Shown: one piece after another, positions 1-16,606 of the stretch
Layout of the letters: every line of letters begins with the position of its first letter
Numbering within the stretch: position 1 is the first letter of the stretch
Origin: a virus
Lineage: Duplodnaviria > Heunggongvirae > Uroviricota > Caudoviricetes
Length of the DNA stretch: 16,606 nucleotides
Virus record (IMG/VR): IMGVR_UViG_2623620506_000007
Span: 1-16,606 of that record
Direction: 5' to 3' (one strand)
The notes under the pieces: generated by a model
What the model was told of the DNA's origin: nothing
The model's database searches: none
The model's input: the letters and a program-made list of their open reading frames with translations, nothing else
Position numbers and translations under genes: made by a program

Positions 1-84
1 ATGGCGGGTTATTTGTCCTGGTTATTCCCCCGTTGTAAAATCTCTCCTAAACTTAACGGTACGGCACCACACTTCGGGGATGAA

Positions 85-276
85 ATGTTCGCGCTGGTAC
101 TTTTTGTTTGCTACCTGGATGGCGGTTGTGAAGATATTGTTGTGGATGTCTACAACACGGAACAGCAGTGTCTTTATTCTATGAGCGATCAACGGATCCG
201 CCATGGCGGTTGTTTTCCGATTGAGGATTTTATAGATGGTTTCTGGCGACCTGCACAGGAGTACGGTGATTTTTAA
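85..276 (+). CDS. yebW: Small conserved protein, YebW-like (63 aa from the internal ATG at 85)
   Basis: ORF 1..276 in the track; the internal ATG at 85 gives a 63-aa product. It is convergent with pphA, which matches the yebW-pphA arrangement I recall from E. coli K-12. Identity rests on synteny and recalled size, not a search. Confidence 0.4.
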   Translation: MFALVLFVCYLDGGCEDIVVDVYNTEQQCLYSMSDQRIRHGGCFPIEDFIDGFWRPAQEYGDF

Positions 277-933
277 TTATTGCAATTGCACAAGAGTCAG
301 TTCGCCCCCAAAGACAGCACCGGTATCAATATAATGCAGGTTGCCAATATCCACGCGATGTCGCAACGGTGTATGACCAAACCAGAAATAATCAGCACCT
401 GTAATTCCCTGCCCTTTTTGGCGTTCACCTAATCGCGAGCGGCTCCACAAGACCTGATGCAAATCAACGTCCTTTTGCCATTCATAAACATCATCTGGAT
501 AATCGGCATGAGCAATAACATGTTTGCCGGTACGACTGTGTACTTCAAGAATAAAGGGCAAATGCTGACATTTTTCCAGCGCCGTTTTCGCTTGTTTCTG
601 TTGATTATCTGCCAGCGCAATAAACCAGTCGCCGCCATTCATCAACCACAAAGACATCTGCTGAGATGCCAGCGCATCCATCGCCATCTGTTCATGATTG
701 CCTCTTACCGCACGAACCCAATGTTGTTCCAGTAACTGCAGACAACGTAAACTTTGCGGCCCACGATCGATAACGTCTCCCACTGAGATAAGTAAATCTC
801 GCCACGGATCAAAACGACAATGCCATAATTTGCGGCGCAACTGCTCAAGACAACCGTGTATATCGCCAGAAAGCCAGATATGTCGCCATTGATGACCCGC
901 AATTCTCTGATAAACGGGCGCAGGCTGTTTCAT
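277..933 (-). CDS. pphA: Serine/threonine protein phosphatase 1, PP1/2A/2B (calcineurin-like) metallophosphatase
   Basis: Metallophosphatase motifs GDIHG, GDVIDRG and GNHE are present in the 219-aa track ORF. The first codon in the track is TTG; the ATG at 933..931 gives 218 aa, preceded by GGAGG about 9 nt upstream. The N-terminus matches my recollection of E. coli PphA/PrpA. Confidence 0.9.
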   Translation of the reverse strand: MKQPAPVYQRIAGHQWRHIWLSGDIHGCLEQLRRKLWHCRFDPWRDLLISVGDVIDRGPQSLRCLQLLEQHWVRAVRGNHEQMAMDALASQQMSLWLMNGGDWFIALADNQQKQAKTALEKCQHLPFILEVHSRTGKHVIAHADYPDDVYEWQKDVDLHQVLWSRSRLGERQKGQGITGADYFWFGHTPLRHRVDIGNLHYIDTGAVFGGELTLVQLQ

Positions 934-1060
934 CAATATTTTCCTCCCGCGCTAAAGATCACATAATCTTAACAAGAATGTTAAAAAACGCTGGACTCAG
1001 ACAGTAGAGTGTGTGTTATGGTTGACTATAAAGTCAGCGAAGGGAATGCTTCTGGCTTTT

Positions 1061-1386: not shown

Positions 1387-2655
1387 TCAACGGACAATCA
1401 ACAAATCAGAAAATCTTGTCGTATATCGAGGCGACAGCATTTCCCTTTTCATTTGCCACTGCTGCTGAACGCCCTGGCCAGCAAAGTAAATCGTTCCCCT
1501 ACCGTCTTTGGCATTAAGATTATCCAGCAACTCCATGAGCTTCTCGCTGCCTGCCCGCGGCGCGTTCTCATCAAAGAGATTAAGCTGAGCGACACCCTGA
1601 CTGAAGAAGTCGCCAAGCATGACGCCGGCTTTCTGATACCGATGGCCGTCTCGCCAGATTTTGTCCAGGCACTTTACCGCCGCATTGATTATGTCCCGGC
1701 TGTCCTGCGTGGGAATAAGAAGCTTAATTGATGCACTGTTGCCATAGTAGGGTTCATTAAGGGCAAAGGGGCTGGTCTTCACGAAGGCTGAGATAAAGCG
1801 GCAGTACTGATGCTCACCGCGCAGTTTCTCCGCCGCGCGTGCAGCGTAGCTGCAGATAGCCTGGCGCATCTGCTCATAATCGGTAACCCGCTCGCCAAAA
1901 GAGCGGGAGCAGACAATTTCCTGTTTCGCCGGCGCAAACTCCTCCAGTTCAAGGCATGGCTCGCCGCGCAGTTCCCGCACGGTACGCTCCAGCACCACAT
2001 TGAAGTGTTTTCGGATAATCCATGTGCCCTGCTCTGACAGGTCCAGCGCGGTTTTAATGCCCATTGCGTTGAGCTTTTTGCTGATGCGCCTGCCGACGCC
2101 CCAGACATCCTCCACGGGAACGAGAGACATTAGCCGACGCTGGCGATCGACGTTCGACAAATCCACTACGCCGCCGGTCTGCCGCTGCCATTTTTTCGCA
2201 GCGTGATTAGCAAGCTTCGCCAGGGTTTTGGTCTGGGCAATGCCGACGCCCACGGTAAGATGTGTGTTCTGCAAAACCGTAGCGCGAATTTCCCTTCCAA
2301 AATCTTCCAGGTTCCGGCAATTCCGTACGCCAGTGAGATCGCAAAAGGCCTCATCGATTGAGTATATTTCTACGCGAGGGCTCATTTCCTCGAGCGTTGT
2401 CATTACACGCTGGCTCATGTCCGCATACAGCTCATAATTGGAACTGAAGCAGACCACGCCGTAGCGACGGAACAAATCTTTCTGCTTAAAGAAAGGCTCG
2501 CCCATTTTAATGCCCAGCTCTTTCGCCTCCGCAGAACGGGCAATAACACATCCATCATTGTTAGAAAGCACGACCACCGGCCGCCCTTTCAGGTCTGGTC
2601 TAAATACCGTTTCGCAGGATGCGTAAAAAGAATTTACGTCACAGAGCGCGAACAT
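1387..2655 (-). CDS. umuC: UmuC, catalytic subunit of error-prone DNA polymerase V (Y family), 422 aa
   Basis: From the ATG at 2655 the product starts [22 protein letters not shown] and runs full length with the beta-clamp motif QLNLF. It is very similar to enterobacterial UmuC from memory. The track start at 2670 is a longer alternative; the ATG at 2655 overlaps the upstream stop as TGATG. Confidence 0.95.
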
Positions 2656-2930
2656 CACATCACCGGGCAATCATCAAAGTCAGTCGGTTCGCCAGAATGC
2701 GTTAAGATACCGACCAACTGAACATACTCCAGTGATTCCCCTTCAATGGCCTCACCTTCTTCAGTAATCAGCGCATTCCCAGCTTTATACGCATATTGCT
2801 GGCGACCGCAAAACCATATCAGCAATGTGACGCTGGCGTAAGCATGTCTCTCGCACTCTTCTGGAACGTCTAACATTTCGATATTAGGTAAGCTACCGCA
2901 TACCTCAAAGTTCTCTGTGTAATCAATCAT
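2655..2930 (-). CDS. Small acidic 4-Cys protein (91 aa) in the position normally held by umuD; function unknown
   Basis: ATG at 2930 with AAGGGG 7-12 nt upstream, LexA box and promoter directly upstream, and stop overlapping the umuC start (TGATG). No S24 peptidase hallmarks (no GDSM-type serine, no TVKK-type lysine), and it is too short for UmuD (about 139 aa). The other two frames are full of stops, so this is not a frameshifted umuD. Confidence 0.65.
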
Positions 2931-7255: not shown

Positions 7256-7576
7256 TTATATGTCTTTTTTAAGTACTAACTGGCAGTCATCCTTGGTTAA
7301 TCCCAAAACTTTTGCCGACTCCTCATAACCGCAGGCGGTTTTCACTCTCCTGAATCCGAGCAAGGCAAACTTATCACCTTGGGTTTCCATGAGATGTTTT
7401 TCGTCCCCACCTTCTCTTCTTGCGAAGCCTGCAGCTTCAAATCTTGATGCTTTTGATATAGCCACATGAACCGGGAAGTTTTCATCCAGATCGGGATGTT
7501 TTTTGAAGAAGTCAGCCAACGTTCCAGCCGTACATGAAAATGAAGCCAGGATGATAAAAACAAGCAGTCCTTTCAT
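7256..7576 (-). CDS. Small exported protein (106 aa, N-terminal signal peptide, Cys-containing); moron gene 2
   Basis: N-terminus MKGLLVFIILASFSCTAG is hydrophobic and signal-like, with no canonical lipobox. Local GC is lower than in the flanking tail genes, and the terminator follows. Confidence 0.55.
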   Translation of the reverse strand: MKGLLVFIILASFSCTAGTLADFFKKHPDLDENFPVHVAISKASRFEAAGFARREGGDEKHLMETQGDKFALLGFRRVKTACGYEESAKVLGLTKDDCQLVLKKDI

Positions 7577-7581
7577 GATAG

Positions 7582-7911
7582 TTACCCATTAGCACTACAG
7601 TTATAAGTCCCAAAAACTCGCGGAGCGTTCATATTTGCCCTAAGCGCTTCAACATTCAAAAAAGCCTTGCCGTCACGCTTAATCAGTTCATAGCCATATG
7701 CATACCCATCAGGGGCAGGGGACAAAACCATCTCAAGCTTCATGTTGGAATAGTCGCCTTTCGCCTTCAAAAAAGTAACTTTTTGAGTGCTGGTCACCAC
7801 CCCGTTTATTGTCGTTTCGCCTGACTCGTTGGCATCAACTAGCCATTTACCACACTTTAACCCCGAGGCATGACTAATGCCTGCAGCCAGTAGCACCAAG
7901 ATACCTAACAT
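7582..7911 (-). CDS. Small exported protein (109 aa from the ATG at 7911, signal peptide with SHA-SG cleavage-like site); moron gene 1
   Basis: The track ORF 7582..8028 overlaps the hub gene by 110 nt. The internal ATG at 7911 gives MLGILVLLAAGISHASG..., a typical signal peptide, and starts 7 nt after the hub stop. Low-GC segment. Confidence 0.55.
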   Translation of the reverse strand: MLGILVLLAAGISHASGLKCGKWLVDANESGETTINGVVTSTQKVTFLKAKGDYSNMKLEMVLSPAPDGYAYGYELIKRDGKAFLNVEALRANMNAPRVFGTYNCSANG

Positions 7912-7918
7912 CCTAATG

Positions 7919-8992
7919 TTAACCGCCACCTGGAACTCCCCTTGCGATTGCAGAGCTCGATAATAAATCCTTCGCCCCGCGCGCCATACACATGAGGTCC
8001 ATATACCATGGATTTCCCCTCGTATCACCGGTGTAGCTGATTGACTGAACTATGTAAACGCCATCAGTTGCCACACTGGCGGGCTGCGCAATAGTGCCGC
8101 CAAGGGAAAGGTTACCATCATTGCTCGACTCTGTGATCCTTGACTGTGATCTTTGAATTTCGTCGTTGGGCAGCTGCGAACGATAGACTGATGCCTGGTC
8201 CAGCTGGATCAGGCCATTCACACGGATGTTTGGGTTGATGAGACAGCGAACATTGACGCCGGCGCCCATGGTTTGCTGGGGCATGCCGACCAGTCCCGTT
8301 TCACTACTGAGCACGCTCGCTTCATGAAGGTATTTATTCTCAGGCACCATTTGCAGCTGGCCGTCGACAAATTGCCAGTTAGCCTCGCACTGCGCCGCCA
8401 GGTTGCTCATGTAGTCGCGCGTTGCGCCGAAGAAGACGCGACCACGTGGCATGACACGGTCAGGAAACTGCACGGTGATGCCCTGGGTGATGCCGTAAGG
8501 CGAAAAGTCCTTCATCAGAAGTGAATGCACGTCGGCAAGCTTATATCCTGCCGCCAGGCTACCGGACGATACGGCTTCATTGAACGCCTTATGGCCATCC
8601 ACCGACTGAATTAGCGTAAAAATATCGGTAGGATTATCGCGCCCGGTTATCGTAAAACGGATCTCTCCATCAAAAATAACCCCGTAATTCTGCCCGCGCG
8701 TCTGGCCGGTTTGCTCAGATGAAATCTCGGTAACCTGCCCAACCTCACTTTCGGTAACCGTCGGCGCCAGGCCGTTATACCCGGCTATGATGGTAATGCG
8801 AGAAAACTCATCCCCCGTAATCCGGGTGATTGTGTCACGCTTGAGGTTGTAAATTTTAAGCGTCGCCACACGTGGCCACATCGAGTTAAACCAGTCGATT
8901 GCGAAGGTAACTTTAAAGTCCGACAGGGATATTCCGTTCCCCTTGTCGTTCAGAAGCCGCAGTTCAAAATGGCGATTCCAGTTAATAGTCAT
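7919..8992 (-). CDS. Probable baseplate hub protein (P2 gpD / Mu gpP-like)
   Basis: 357 aa in the position that follows the tape measure and small tail proteins and precedes the spike in Mu-like tails. The call is based on gene order and size only. Confidence 0.45.
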   Translation of the reverse strand: MTINWNRHFELRLLNDKGNGISLSDFKVTFAIDWFNSMWPRVATLKIYNLKRDTITRITGDEFSRITIIAGYNGLAPTVTESEVGQVTEISSEQTGQTRGQNYGVIFDGEIRFTITGRDNPTDIFTLIQSVDGHKAFNEAVSSGSLAAGYKLADVHSLLMKDFSPYGITQGITVQFPDRVMPRGRVFFGATRDYMSNLAAQCEANWQFVDGQLQMVPENKYLHEASVLSSETGLVGMPQQTMGAGVNVRCLINPNIRVNGLIQLDQASVYRSQLPNDEIQRSQSRITESSNDGNLSLGGTIAQPASVATDGVYIVQSISYTGDTRGNPWYMDLMCMARGAKDLLSSSAIARGVPGGG

Positions 8993-12925: not shown

Positions 12926-14416
12926 TTAGCGCACCACGTCGATTAATACATCAGCGAAGTGGATAGCCCCCGCCAGTTTGGTTGCTACCTGAATCACCGG
13001 CGCCTTACGCGCTTCACGATCTGCCTGCGCCTGGGCGTTGAGCGGGTTCGCATAAACGTAATAGCCTTTGGTCAGCATATCGCCTGATGTCAGCTGTCCG
13101 ACGTCACCGCCGTTCCAGATCCCCGGTGCCACCAGACCGTTGTTTACAGACTGGTCCATAGACTGTTCGACATTGGTCACCAGGCGCGTCACGCCCGCTT
13201 CGGTCTGCGGGATTTTGGTGGTTGAGGTGTAAAGCAGGTTCCAGAGGTTGTTCTGGACGTAGTTCTGCAGCCAGTCGAGACCGTGGCGCTCGTCGAAGAA
13301 GTCGCCGTTCGACATCACGCCTTCCTGGATGATGGCGGTATCGTTGGCGTAGCGCACAAACACGTTGCAGTTTTTTGCCTTGAGCGTGTCGGCCTGCTGC
13401 GCGGTGATCGTTTCGGCAGTGATGCCCGGCTCCTGCTTGAATTTCAGGGTGATGGTGGTGTTGTTACCCAGGAAATTTACGGTGAACGCGCGACCGAAGG
13501 CGGAAGCTGCCGCATATGGCACCTGGCTGTACTGGCAAAACGTACGGCCATAACCAGCAGCTTTCAGCCTGTAGGCAATATCCGTGGTGCTGGTTGAGTC
13601 CAGGACCTCGGTCGCCGCAGTTGTCACACCGTACACCCGGGAATCGCTCGCAGAGCCGATCAGGGCAGATACATCGATATGGTCCTGGTCCGTCATTGCA
13701 GTATCGGCGATAACCAGTCCATACCAGTCGGCTGAGTAGTTCAGCGCTGTATTCACCGACGGCAGCACTGAGGATGAGGCATCCTGGCCGTTTGACACGG
13801 TGGGGTTATGCGCTGAGTCAATGCCCAGCAGCGGCGCCAGGTCAGTGCCTGTGCCGGCAGCAACAGGAATACCGATCGCCGAGGAGGCCCCGGTAGTGGA
13901 AGATGTCACCACAAACTGATTCGAGCCGGCCACGTAGGAAACGGTGGTACCGGTAAGTTTCGCAGTGACGGCGGTCGCTACTCCGGCCAGATCGGTCACC
14001 GCTGACAGGTCGATACCCGTTACGGTTTTAACAGTGCCGTCCACCGAGATCTTAATCGCACCATCGTCGATCGCGGTAAAGTTTGCTATCGCCTGCTCTG
14101 CAGAGGTCAGTACAGCACCAGTGAGCTTGCCGGCCGTTGCCGGGCTGGAGGCGCGTTCCAGTTTGCCGATATACAGATCGCGGGGCTGCGGCGACTGCTG
14201 GAAGTAAAGGTTTGCCGCCTTGTACTCTTCAGCGGTAGTGCCAAAGTCAGTGGCGACACTTTCGATATCCTGGTAAAGGCGCATCACTTCTGGGGCAGTG
14301 ATTACGTCGGCGGTGCCGAGAACCAGCAGCGCGCCGAAGTTACGCCCGGCCGCCGCGCGAACGGCGAGCGCGACCTGCACGCGAACGACGCGTGATACAG
14401 ATAAGCCGTTAGGCAT
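12926..14416 (-). CDS. Contractile tail sheath protein
   Basis: 496 aa, Thr/Ser/Ala-rich with a conserved-looking C-terminal region, followed by tube, chaperone and tape measure genes. GGAGA lies 8 nt upstream of the ATG at 14416. Confidence 0.85.
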
Positions 14417-15341: not shown

Positions 15342-15847
15342 TATTTTTTACCTCTCACAACAAATGTGATCGAGCGAAGCAGGTAGCCGTGGTCATACAG
15401 CGGCTTAATGCCTGTGAACCCGCGTCCCCGCCGTCTCTGGATAGTGAGCTCGGATACGGGCTCCAGCCGGTCCCCGTCGGTAATAACGCGCTTCGCGGCA
15501 TCCGATGCCAGTTGCCCTGCGTTAGTAAACTCGCGCTCAGCACCAGAGAAATTGCCATCCAATGCAAGGCCGGCTGCCGTGCCGAGATGCTCAGAAGTGA
15601 TCTTTGACGAATCCTCAATACCGATGTCCAGGAACGGGCGCGGCGGCAAGGTCACCTCCTGCCCACCGAGCCGGACCGTTGCCCCGGTGGATTGCAGATA
15701 GGCGATCTCAGCGTTGTTGAGCTCTTCCCTGTCTTCACGCACCGCGTTGGATTCAGGGATACCCACCAGCACATCCATCCGGGACAGCCTGTCCAGACCA
15801 GCCAGCACCGAGGTGGCATTGTCCGCCCTGACCTTCACGCCGCTCAT
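15341..15847 (-). CDS. Phage head-tail joining / virion morphogenesis protein candidate (168 aa)
   Basis: The ATG at 15847 overlaps the upstream stop (ATGA); the track start at 15886 is a longer alternative. Confidence 0.4.
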   Translation of the reverse strand: MSGVKVRADNATSVLAGLDRLSRMDVLVGIPESNAVREDREELNNAEIAYLQSTGATVRLGGQEVTLPPRPFLDIGIEDSSKITSEHLGTAAGLALDGNFSGAEREFTNAGQLASDAAKRVITDGDRLEPVSELTIQRRRGRGFTGIKPLYDHGYLLRSITFVVRGKK

Positions 15848-16251
15848 AGCAGTTGCCGCCCGCCAGCACCGAACATAGACCACCACCAGAAGAACTCCTG
15901 CCCGTACCCGGTTTTATTCCAGAACCCGGCGTCGGGGTTGATGGTGCCCGAATTGTCATAGCTGACGCTGACCTTATCGACAGACTTCGACGATGCCACA
16001 CCGCTACCGCCGCTACTGACAAAGCCGCCCGATACGCCAGCCAGCGCTCGACCGCGCAGCTCAACGTAATGCGCTGTGAACAGCTCAGCCAGGTAAACGA
16101 ACTGGTCGCCGTGAATGTCCTGGTTGAGGATGGCGTCAGCCTGTCCGAGGTAAAAATTTACGGAGGCGTCTGGATAGCGGGTGGTGTTGGCGAACTCAGG
16201 GAAGTCGGTGCGGAACTGATCACTTGTTGGCAGAAGGCTGTTTTTTGGCAT
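15844..16251 (-). CDS. Phage protein, DUF4054-like head-tail connector candidate (135 aa)
   Basis: The ATG at 16251 is preceded by a perfect AGGAGG 6 nt upstream; the track start at 16272 is a TTG. The Gly/Ser-rich middle and FFWWW C-terminus recall DUF4054-type proteins, from memory. Confidence 0.45.
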   Translation of the reverse strand: MPKNSLLPTSDQFRTDFPEFANTTRYPDASVNFYLGQADAILNQDIHGDQFVYLAELFTAHYVELRGRALAGVSGGFVSSGGSGVASSKSVDKVSVSYDNSGTINPDAGFWNKTGYGQEFFWWWSMFGAGGRQLL

Positions 16252-16606
16252 TGCCAGCCTCCTGTGATGCAAGCTTCTCAGTCAGCTCATCCAGCTGCTG
16301 TTGCAGGCCGGTGATGGTGCCGTCTTTCTCTTCGATTTGCTTCAGCTGATCGTCGATGGTGGTGGTCTTTTCATCCAGCTGCTGTTGCAGGCCGGTGATG
16401 GTGGTCTCCAGCCCGGAGACCTTAAGCGCGAGGTCTTCGTCGCTCTGGCTTTGCTTTAGCTCATCTTCGCTGATGGCCTGCGCATGCGCACCAAACGCCC
16501 AGTGCTCAGTAACGTGCTTATCGAAGCTGTGCACGCCGGGGGTAAGTTCTACCTGCGAACCATCGGAAAAGCGCAGCACGGTCCCGGTATTTACGAGATA
16601 TTTCAT
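16220..16606 (-). CDS. Coiled-coil protein with internal repeats (128 aa); start coincides with the window edge
   Basis: N-terminal domain of about 50 aa followed by a heptad-like coiled coil with a duplicated TITGLQQQLDE unit and a Lys-rich tail. Confidence 0.5.
   Translation of the reverse strand: MKYLVNTGTVLRFSDGSQVELTPGVHSFDKHVTEHWAFGAHAQAISEDELKQSQSDEDLALKVSGLETTITGLQQQLDEKTTTIDDQLKQIEEKDGTITGLQQQLDELTEKLASQEAGNAKKQPSANK
16287..16403 (+). repeat. Perfect 33-bp direct repeat (two copies, 84-bp period) inside the coiled-coil gene
   Basis: tcatccagctgctgttgcaggccggtgatggtg occurs at 16287-16319 and again at 16371-16403. Confidence 0.85.

What the first reader, a model, noticed from the sequence alone, without database searches (positions are those of the whole stretch)
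16220..16606. Coiled-coil protein built on a perfect 33-bp tandem duplication at the head-tail module boundary
Two identical 33-bp units 84 bp apart encode duplicated TITGLQQQLDE heptad-like units. Perfect nucleotide identity implies a recent duplication or a site of repeat-number variation by slippage or recombination. The protein (globular N-terminus, coiled coil, Lys-rich tail) sits first in the visible structural string and could be a length-variable decoration or scaffolding-like component. I cannot assign a family.
Basis: seen in the sequence. Interest (0 to 1): 0.35.

Follow-up and report, generated by a model that had tools for sequence, protein, structure and literature searches.

The report
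Length-variable coiled-coil phage head-module protein
This is a small prophage gene of a named but uncharacterised family (STY1053) whose helical middle part grows and shrinks in whole heptads between related phages by recombination between internal repeats; this is a tidy example of a known process, and the protein's job is still unknown.

Summary
Two identical 33-nt copies lie at 16287-16319 and 16371-16403, 84 nt apart, inside a 128-codon minus-strand ORF (16220-16606). They are not adjacent. They are the ends of a 1.4-copy 84-nt unit on an older 42-nt (14-aa) period.

The gene belongs to the STY1053 family (NF047914, PHROG 2619). In relatives it always lies between the major capsid gene and the DUF4054 head-to-tail adaptor gene of SEN34-like myovirus prophages.

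The model shows a 45-residue beta domain followed by one long helix with a single unbroken heptad register.

Relatives encode 60-72, 100, 114, 121, 128 and 156 residues, that is 0, 1, 2 or 3 repeat units spaced 14, 21 or 28 residues apart. One 100-residue gene equals a 121-residue E. coli gene with a single 63-nt deletion and no other difference. Synonymous variants co-vary between the two copies within genomes, so the copies are repeatedly homogenised. This is more than one recent duplication.

The 'Lys-rich tail' is a 32-nt overlap with the ribosome-binding site and start of the adaptor gene.

Function is untested. I infer a minor head or neck accessory with a variable stalk. Interest is modest.

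The parts
16220..16606 (-). STY1053-family gene, 128 codons plus stop; the ATG is the last three bases of the window
   Evidence: ORF and translation. NF047914 54.3 bits against a cutoff of 40. PHROG 2619 E 8e-34 over the full length. An identical protein is on record as an E. coli STY1053-family protein (P0001). In the 97%-identical relative L004, a GGAG site lies 5 nt upstream of the same ATG.
16469..16606 (-). N-terminal domain, residues 1-46, with the invariant HWAF motif; the only part shared by all family members
   Evidence: AlphaFold2 gives four to five short strands and two short helices, with pLDDT 92-95. Invariant columns D15, G24, H35, W36, F38. pN/pS 0.16. The exhaustive profile search found this domain only at the N-terminus of 60-161 aa proteins.
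16259..16468 (-). Helical stalk, residues 47-116, with one continuous heptad register (a positions D V I L I I I L L; d positions L L L K Q K L L Q)
   Evidence: AlphaFold2 predicts a single helix over residues 47-121, with pLDDT 92-98 for residues 61-110. 13 of 19 a/d positions are L/I/V/M in one register; the best unrelated register has 2 of 20 (the same seam read 3 or 4 residues out of phase scores 5 and 9). pN/pS 0.24.
16371..16403 (-). Repeat copy 1 (gene-proximal), encoding TITGLQQQLDE, residues 69-79
   Evidence: 100% identical to copy 2; protein coordinates.
16329..16361 (-). Degenerate middle copy (64% identity) of the 42-nt period, encoding part of TIDDQLKQIEEKDG
16287..16319 (-). 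Repeat copy 2, encoding TITGLQQQLDE, residues 97-107
16320..16403 (-). The 84-nt (28-aa, four-heptad) unit whose number varies among relatives: 0, 1 or 2 full units followed by the terminal 33-nt copy
   Evidence: 100-aa (L052, L063, L064), 128-aa and 156-aa (L009, L010; 188 nt of perfect tandem) forms.
16220..16251 (-). 32-nt overlap between the last 10 sense codons and stop codon of the STY1053 gene and the first codons (MPKNSLLPTSD) of the DUF4054 adaptor gene in another frame
   Evidence: The same 32-nt overlap was found by an ATG search in 40 of 41 distinct relatives' contexts; the 41st, L020, has GTG at the equivalent position. Synonymous divergence is 0.10 here against 0.36-0.47 elsewhere.
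16258..16263 (-). AGGAGG Shine-Dalgarno site of the DUF4054 gene, 6 nt before its ATG (16249-16251), lying inside STY1053 codons Q-E-A
   Evidence: Read from the sequence. GGAG or GGGG is conserved at this position in all contexts.
15844..16251 (-). Downstream partner gene: DUF4054 / E217_gp27-type dodecameric head-to-tail adaptor
   Evidence: PF13262 E 1.8e-20. PDB 8fvh/9b41 E217 gp27 / Pa193 gp28 E 3.6e-9.

Best explanation
The ORF is a genuine late gene of a SEN34-like (Brunovirus-type) myovirus prophage and a member of the STY1053 family. The protein has three parts. The first is a conserved ~45-residue beta-rich N-terminal domain, which is the family's functional core. The second is an alpha-helical coiled-coil stalk with one unbroken heptad register. 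The third is a C-terminal stretch whose conservation is mostly imposed by the overlapping start of the next gene.

Stalk length is set by the number and spacing of an internal repeat. Misaligned pairing of the direct repeats, by replication slippage or unequal homologous recombination, deletes or duplicates whole numbers of heptads. The same process, or gene conversion, keeps the copies within a genome alike. Related phages therefore carry stalks ranging from none to about 12 heptads while the register is preserved. These points are shown.

The following is inferred. The protein is a low-copy accessory of the head or neck. Its N-domain docks on a head or connector component, and it is made together with the DUF4054 portal adaptor. 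The stalk is a tolerant spacer or oligomerisation module, not a precisely sized part.
For: Family and synteny.

Fold. Heptad register kept in the 100, 114, 121, 128 and 156 aa variants. Coding constraint in all parts.

Length series 60-72/100/114/121/128/156 aa, with units spaced 14, 21 or 28 aa.

Precise deletion: L001 against L052 shows 0 mismatches in 303 nt and one 63-nt gap bounded by the repeats. The 100-aa form is present in a k=141 contig and a 75-kb scaffold. The 156-aa form occurs on two 42-kb viral contigs.

Homogenisation: across 10 distinct 128-aa genes, 317 of 330 repeat positions are identical within genomes, against 296.7 +/- 3.8 after permuting genome labels (0 of 20000 permutations reach the observed value). 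Polymorphic synonymous sites 10, 12, 13, 16, 19, 26 and 30 carry the same allele in both copies in 8-10 of 10 genomes. Four diverged lineages each have their own perfect 33-nt pair (window, L011, L012/L049, L046).

Stalk dispensable: 60-72 aa members have only the N-domain plus the overlap tail.

Coupling to the adaptor gene: the 32-nt overlap and internal SD in 40 of 41 contexts.
Against: No experiment or proteomic record exists for any family member; a full-text search for 'STY1053' returned nothing. The N-domain has no significant structural neighbour in PDB or BFVD, so its docking partner is unknown. The oligomeric state could not be modelled. The threefold capsid sites are presumably taken by a separate cement protein (Phage_cement / XM1_gp53 family), which argues against a classical trimeric decoration role at those sites. 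Selection for two identical peptide segments could add to the within-protein similarity. Some short-read contigs could in principle collapse the repeat.
Confidence: 0.6

Rival explanations
1. A non-virion assembly factor. The protein would act transiently in head completion or in adaptor/portal loading and would be absent from mature particles. It would be comparable in gene position to lambda gpFI, which lies between the capsid gene E and the head-tail joining gene FII.
For: The gene lies between the capsid and adaptor genes and overlaps the adaptor gene. It has no similarity to known structural proteins. The stalk is dispensable in some lineages. The lambda comparison is from my own knowledge and was not tested.
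Against: There is no sequence or fold link to gpFI or any chaperone. In the distantly related Pbunavirus Pa193, the non-homologous protein in the same slot (gp27) was detected in virions by LC-MS (PMC11456595; non-homology shown).
Confidence: 0.28
2. One recent duplication and nothing more. The perfect identity would simply date a single young duplication in this prophage, with no recurrent expansion, contraction or conversion.
For: The two copies are 100% identical in the window.
Against: The two-copy layout is shared by relatives only 40-90% identical, and by SEN34, EKP1 and Mulock with unrelated repeat sequences. Lineage-specific synonymous changes are present in both copies. Unit number and spacing differ between close relatives.
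Confidence: 0.05
3. A scaffolding protein for procapsid assembly, that is a coiled coil with a capsid-binding end.
For: Weak hit of the helical part to PHROG 73, head scaffolding protein (E 5e-4). Small coiled-coil scaffolds exist, for example phi29 gp7 (own knowledge).
Against: The hit covers only the coiled coil, alongside many other coiled-coil families. The gene lies downstream of the capsid gene. Relatives encode a DUF2213 protein in the usual scaffold/protease position, and its Pa193 counterpart gp24 is the proposed scaffold. Members without any coiled coil exist.
Confidence: 0.05
4. The length variants are assembly artefacts caused by collapse of a short perfect repeat.
For: Many homologues come from k=31 Logan assemblies. 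That k is shorter than the 33-nt repeat, so loop-skipping is conceivable (my inference).
Against: The 114, 121 and 128-aa forms occur in complete RefSeq E. coli chromosomes. The 100-aa form occurs in a k=141 contig and a 75-kb scaffold across 7 contigs. L052's parent type has only a 25-nt exact repeat. The 156-aa form is an expansion, which collapse cannot produce.
Confidence: 0.03

Closest known systems
STY1053 family phage-associated protein (NCBIfam NF047914; PHROG 2619)
   Same: The N-terminal 42-residue domain scores above the curated cutoff, there is a full-length PHROG match, and the position between the capsid and DUF4054 genes is the same.
   Different: Nothing differs; the window protein is a member. 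The family has no described function, and its repeat-length polymorphism does not appear in the searched literature.
Size-variable coiled-coil surface proteins such as streptococcal M protein, where recombination between intragenic repeats changes fibril length (own knowledge, not checked here)
   Same: In-frame repeats within a coiled coil, length variants among close relatives, repeats homogenised within a gene, heptad register preserved.
   Different: The proteins are unrelated in sequence. This one is tiny (60-156 aa) and phage-encoded, with at most three units. There is no evidence of immune or host-range selection on length.
phi29 head fibre gp8.5 and T4 fibritin: phage fibres with an N-terminal attachment domain and a helical stalk (own knowledge)
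   Same: A gene next to the capsid gene (gp8.5), an N-terminal docking domain plus a helical stalk, and dispensability of parts of the stalk.
   Different: No sequence or fold similarity beyond generic coiled coil (fibritin 1avy E 0.1; no fold match). There is no C-terminal tip or foldon domain. Virion presence is unknown.
Pa193 gp27 / PB1 ORF24, the product of the gene between the capsid and head-to-tail adaptor genes in Pbunavirus
   Same: Same slot in a syntenic head-neck module with a homologous adaptor. Pa193 gp27 was found in virions by LC-MS but could not be placed in the map.
   Different: Not homologous: hhalign probability 0.25%. It has no HWAF motif and no coiled coil.

Membership tests
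STY1053 family (NF047914) | N-terminal 42-residue domain scoring above the curated cutoff | tested here: met
   54.3 bits against a cutoff of 40, E 1.1e-14, residues 2-43 matching profile positions 1-42 of 42.
STY1053 family (NF047914) | Gene located between the major capsid gene (DUF2184/PF09950) and the DUF4054 adaptor gene | tested here: met
   The downstream DUF4054 gene is in the window. The upstream capsid gene is seen in every relative with flanks. The window itself ends at the ATG.
PHROG 2619 | Full-length profile match | tested here: met
   E 8e-34, residues 1-128 against profile positions 5-124 of 124.
Alpha-helical coiled coil | Continuous heptad pattern with hydrophobic a/d positions on a predicted helix | tested here: met
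   13 of 19 a/d positions are L/I/V/M in one register; the best unrelated register has 2 of 20 (the same seam read 3 or 4 residues out of phase scores 5 and 9). AlphaFold2 predicts a helix over 47-121 with high confidence.
Alpha-helical coiled coil | Defined oligomeric state (dimer or trimer) | not testable with these tools
   Only monomer prediction is available.
Repeat-mediated size-variable proteins | Copy number or spacing differs between close relatives in frame | tested here: met
   100/114/121/128/156 aa series. L001 against L052: 0 mismatches and one 63-nt gap.
Repeat-mediated size-variable proteins | Concerted evolution of repeat copies | tested here: met
   317 of 330 positions identical within genomes against 296.7 +/- 3.8 after permutation, 0 of 20000 permutations reaching the observed value. 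Co-varying synonymous sites.
Repeat-mediated size-variable proteins | Length changes arise at measurable frequency within a population | not testable with these tools
   This needs deep long-read sequencing of a lysate or lysogen culture.
Phage head decoration / cement proteins (lambda gpD, TW1/XM1 Dec, beta-tulip cement) | Sequence or fold similarity to a known decoration protein | tested here: not met
   No PDB or BFVD match at E <= 1e-3. A separate Phage_cement/XM1_gp53-family gene occupies the slot upstream of the capsid gene.
Phage head decoration / cement proteins | Presence on purified virions | not testable with these tools
   No proteomic data were found for any member.
Phage scaffolding proteins | Specific profile match beyond coiled-coil composition, and a gene upstream of the capsid gene | tested here: not met
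   Only PHROG 73 at E 5e-4 on the helix, among other coiled-coil hits. The gene is downstream of the capsid gene.

The most novel reading that the evidence does not exclude
Stalk length may itself be a selected, tunable trait. The repeats would then act as a built-in length switch, with 0/4/6/7/8/12-heptad alleles interconverting at appreciable frequency. The switch would change how far a head- or neck-anchored fibre projects. Alternatively, the two identical segments could allow staggered self-association into a lattice. Either way a phage population would hold standing heterogeneity in particle surface properties. A 28-residue repeat spacing recurs in the distant relatives SEN34 and EKP1 with unrelated sequences, which hints at selection on the layout.
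Probability: 0.12. Interest if true: 0.55.

Novelty: new member of a known kind. Interest (0 to 1): 0.3.

Why it matters
The finding gives an uncharacterised, named phage family a clear anatomy: a docking-type N-domain, an optional heptad-modular stalk, and a dual-coding 3' end. It documents recurrent repeat-mediated resizing and concerted evolution within a very small viral gene. It also corrects an easy misreading, because the conserved basic C-terminus is largely the footprint of the next gene's start. For annotators, it shows that length differences in this family are real alleles and not errors. For phage structural work, it flags a conserved and still unplaced gene product in the capsid-adaptor slot of a widespread group of temperate myoviruses. 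It does not open a new kind of biology.

Tried and rejected
- Profile search of PDB sequences found only generic coiled coils (GCN4 chimeras E 0.007, fibritin 0.1, P22 gp26 0.22).
- Foldseek of the AlphaFold2 model found nothing at E <= 1e-3 in PDB or BFVD. The weak BFVD neighbours were small phage proteins, some labelled DUF7443 or 'structural protein'. Pfam scans of distant members gave no DUF7443 or other specific hit.
- Exhaustive HMM search with the N-domain, looking for informative domain fusions, found none. The few long hits matched only 15-20 residue repeats and were treated as spurious.
- I tested whether PB1 ORF24 / Pa193 gp27, which occupies the same slot, is a homologue. It is not.
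- I tried to use the cryo-EM phage XM1, which has an unidentified density at the hexamer centre. The only XM1 record available (PP580404) is a different phage with a lambda-like head, so this was a dead end.
- Literature searches for STY1053 and SEN34 proteomics returned nothing usable.
- The genome-contig scan returned only three loci. The viral and metagenome scans supplied the DNA set.
- Plus-strand ORFs over the region (16224-16349, 16301-16459) were rejected as shadows of the minus-strand gene.
- The 12-nt inverted repeats I2 and I3 were rejected as chance matches.

Full report
**Observation**

The window's last 387 bases form a 128-codon ORF on the minus strand, 16220-16606, with the ATG as the final three bases of the window.

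The repeat finder reports two 100% identical 33-nt copies at 16287-16319 and 16371-16403, 84 nt apart. An in-register third copy of 64% identity lies between them at 16329-16361. Tandem Repeats Finder describes the stretch as 2.9 copies of a 42-nt unit. A chance 33-nt exact repeat in a gene this size is expected about 1e-15 times.

Both copies encode TITGLQQQLDE, at residues 69-79 and 97-107. The word 'tandem' needs qualifying: the copies are the ends of an 84-nt (28-residue) unit present 1.4 times, built on an older 14-residue period.

**Identity and context**

The N-terminal 42 residues match NCBIfam NF047914, 'STY1053 family phage-associated protein', above the curated cutoff (54.3 against 40 bits). 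The whole protein matches PHROG 2619, of unknown function, at E 8e-34. Pfam has no specific model for it. An identical protein is on record from E. coli.

The downstream genes in the window are:
- a DUF4054 head-to-tail adaptor, homologous to E217 gp27 / Pa193 gp28
- a Neck1/tail-completion protein
- a head-tail adaptor
- a tail terminator
- a DUF3383 sheath

In every relative with upstream sequence the order is portal (DUF1073), MuF-like, DUF2213, cement protein, major capsid (DUF2184), STY1053, DUF4054. This holds for E. coli prophages, Salmonella phage SEN34 (Brunovirus), Providencia PSTCR3, Elizabethkingia EKP1, Klebsiella Mulock and Burkholderia Magia.

The gene is rare in E. coli. Only 5 of 5,426 complete genomes match, none above 90% DNA identity.

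In the 97%-identical relative L004, a GGAG site lies 5 nt before the same ATG, and a GC-rich hairpin follows the capsid gene.

**Protein anatomy**

AlphaFold2 with a 42-sequence alignment gives mean pLDDT 89. It predicts short strands and two short helices over residues 2-45, then a single helix over 47-121.

The helix has one register in which 13 of 19 a/d positions are L/I/V/M (a: D V I L I I I L L; d: L L L K Q K L L Q). The best unrelated register scores 2 of 20. The same hydrophobic seam read 3 or 4 residues out of phase scores 5 and 9.

Among ten distinct 128-residue alleles, pN/pS is 0.16 for the N-domain and 0.24 for the stalk. Both parts are therefore protein-coding and constrained.

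**The 'Lys-rich tail'**

The last 32 nt of the ORF (16220-16251) overlap the DUF4054 gene in another frame. That gene's ATG is at 16249-16251 and it begins MPKNSLLPTSD. Its AGGAGG ribosome-binding site (16258-16263) lies inside STY1053 codons Q-E-A.

The same 32-nt overlap was found in 40 of 41 distinct relatives' contexts. The search counted ATG only; the 41st context, L020, has GTG at the equivalent position. Mulock also has the overlap.

Synonymous divergence falls to 0.10 in these codons, against 0.36-0.47 elsewhere. The variable tail residues (P/S, A/T/S) are silent in the adaptor frame.

EKP1 has no overlap, and its C-terminus is different (ADKSGKTDKK). The conserved tail is therefore mainly a dual-coding footprint and cannot be read as an independent functional domain.

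**Length variation**

Homologues have lengths of 60-72, 97-100, 114, 121, 128, 156 and, in other lineages, 106-161 residues.

In the close clade the differences are whole heptads:
- one unit gives 100 aa
- two units spaced 14, 21 or 28 residues give 114, 121 or 128 aa
- three units spaced 28 residues give 156 aa (L009/L010, on two separate 42-kb viral contigs, with 188 nt of perfect tandem)

The 97- and 99-residue forms (P0040, P0038) are exceptions to the whole-heptad rule. All five length classes examined keep the same heptad register.

The 100-aa gene L052 equals the 121-aa E. coli gene L001 with zero mismatches over 303 nt and one 63-nt gap bounded by the repeats. This is the signature of a precise repeat-mediated deletion.

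I considered assembly collapse as an explanation. The 100-aa form occurs in a k=141 contig and a 75-kb scaffold, on 7 contigs in all. The 114, 121 and 128-aa forms are in finished chromosomes. Expansions cannot arise by collapse.

**Concerted evolution**

Within genomes the two copies are 317/330 identical across ten distinct 128-aa genes. After permuting genome labels the figure is 296.7 +/- 3.8, and 0 of 20,000 permutations reach the observed value.

At polymorphic, mostly synonymous sites (10, 12, 13, 16, 19, 26, 30 of the 33) both copies carry the same allele in 8-10 of 10 genomes. Between-genome identity of copy 1 to copy 1 (0.845) equals that of copy 1 to copy 2 (0.846). Four diverged lineages each have their own perfect 33-nt pair.

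The same A-spacer-A layout recurs with unrelated sequences:
- SEN34: DSLQAQI twice, 28 apart
- EKP1: EDLKAQLAAL twice, 28 apart
- Mulock: RIAELEA twice, 14 apart
- many metagenomic members

The perfect identity in the window is therefore the current state of an ongoing homogenisation and resizing process. It does not mark one young duplication.

**Function**

The exhaustive profile search with the N-domain over 1.84 billion representatives found only 45 clusters. Apart from a few long proteins that matched only 15-20 residue repeats and were treated as spurious, these are all 60-161 residues with the domain at the N-terminus, and none shows a domain fusion.

Members of 60-72 residues lack the stalk altogether. 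The N-domain is therefore the core, and the stalk is an optional module.

No significant sequence or fold neighbour exists in PDB or BFVD. A full-text search for the family name found no paper.

The capsid's threefold sites are presumably served by the separate cement gene. The scaffold role is presumably served by DUF2213, by analogy with Pa193 gp24.

The only experimental hint is positional. In Pa193, the non-homologous product of the gene in the same slot (gp27) was detected in virions by LC-MS but could not be located in the map.

I therefore infer, and have not shown, a low-copy head or neck accessory. Its N-domain would dock on a head or connector component, and it would be produced in step with the adaptor. 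A transient assembly factor is the main rival.

**Novelty and score**

The family is already named. Intragenic-repeat resizing of coiled coils is a well-known process, for example in streptococcal M protein (my own knowledge).

What is new is the description of that process in this family, together with the dual-coding explanation of the tail. I rate it a new member of a known kind, with interest about 0.3.

Noticed in passing
window 16220-16263 (minus strand): The STY1053 gene's last 32 nt overlap the DUF4054 adaptor gene, and the adaptor's AGGAGG site lies inside STY1053 codons. The arrangement was found in 40 of 41 distinct relatives by an ATG search (the 41st has GTG at the equivalent position) and it depresses synonymous divergence. 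This suggests linked translation of the two genes.
   Followed up: yes
L004 2963-3001 (97%-identical relative; the region lies just beyond the window end): A GC-rich hairpin (GGCGGG-GCAA-CCCGCC) without a clear T-run sits between the capsid gene stop and the STY1053 start. It may attenuate transcription or stabilise the capsid mRNA. If so, the downstream genes would be expressed less than the capsid gene.
   Followed up: no
window 7256-7576 and 7582-8028 (minus strand): Two small ORFs with signal-peptide-like N-termini and no Pfam match sit between the baseplate hub-like gene and the spike gene. The E. coli relative L001 carries different cargo at that position, an EACC1 gene on the opposite strand. 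These look like moron-type insertions.
   Followed up: partly
window 1387-2670 and 2655-2930 (minus strand): A full-length UmuC-type Y-family polymerase gene (IMS, IMS_C, DUF4113) lies at the prophage edge. It is preceded by a 91-aa ORF with no Pfam match (so no UmuD/S24 peptidase hit), which overlaps it by 16 nt.
   Followed up: partly
window 1-936: A DUF1482 ORF (1-276, plus strand) and a calcineurin-like metallophosphatase (277-936, minus strand) flank the UmuC gene. These are probably prophage cargo or host boundary genes.
   Followed up: partly
window 12926-14416 (minus strand): The 496-aa sheath aligns over its full length with PSTCR3, Acinetobacter and Burkholderia phages. It aligns only from about residue 206 with SEN34, Mulock, EKP1 and the Klebsiella prophages, whose sheaths are about 380 aa. 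The sheath gene therefore varies by a roughly 200-residue N-terminal portion within this phage group.
   Followed up: no
L065 (PP580404): The GenBank record named Vibrio phage vB_VpaM_XM1 has a lambda-like head module (Clp protease, gpD-like decoration, gpE-like capsid). This does not match the gene sizes given for the cryo-EM phage XM1 (Dec 160 aa, capsid 324 aa). Two different phages appear to share the name.
   Followed up: partly
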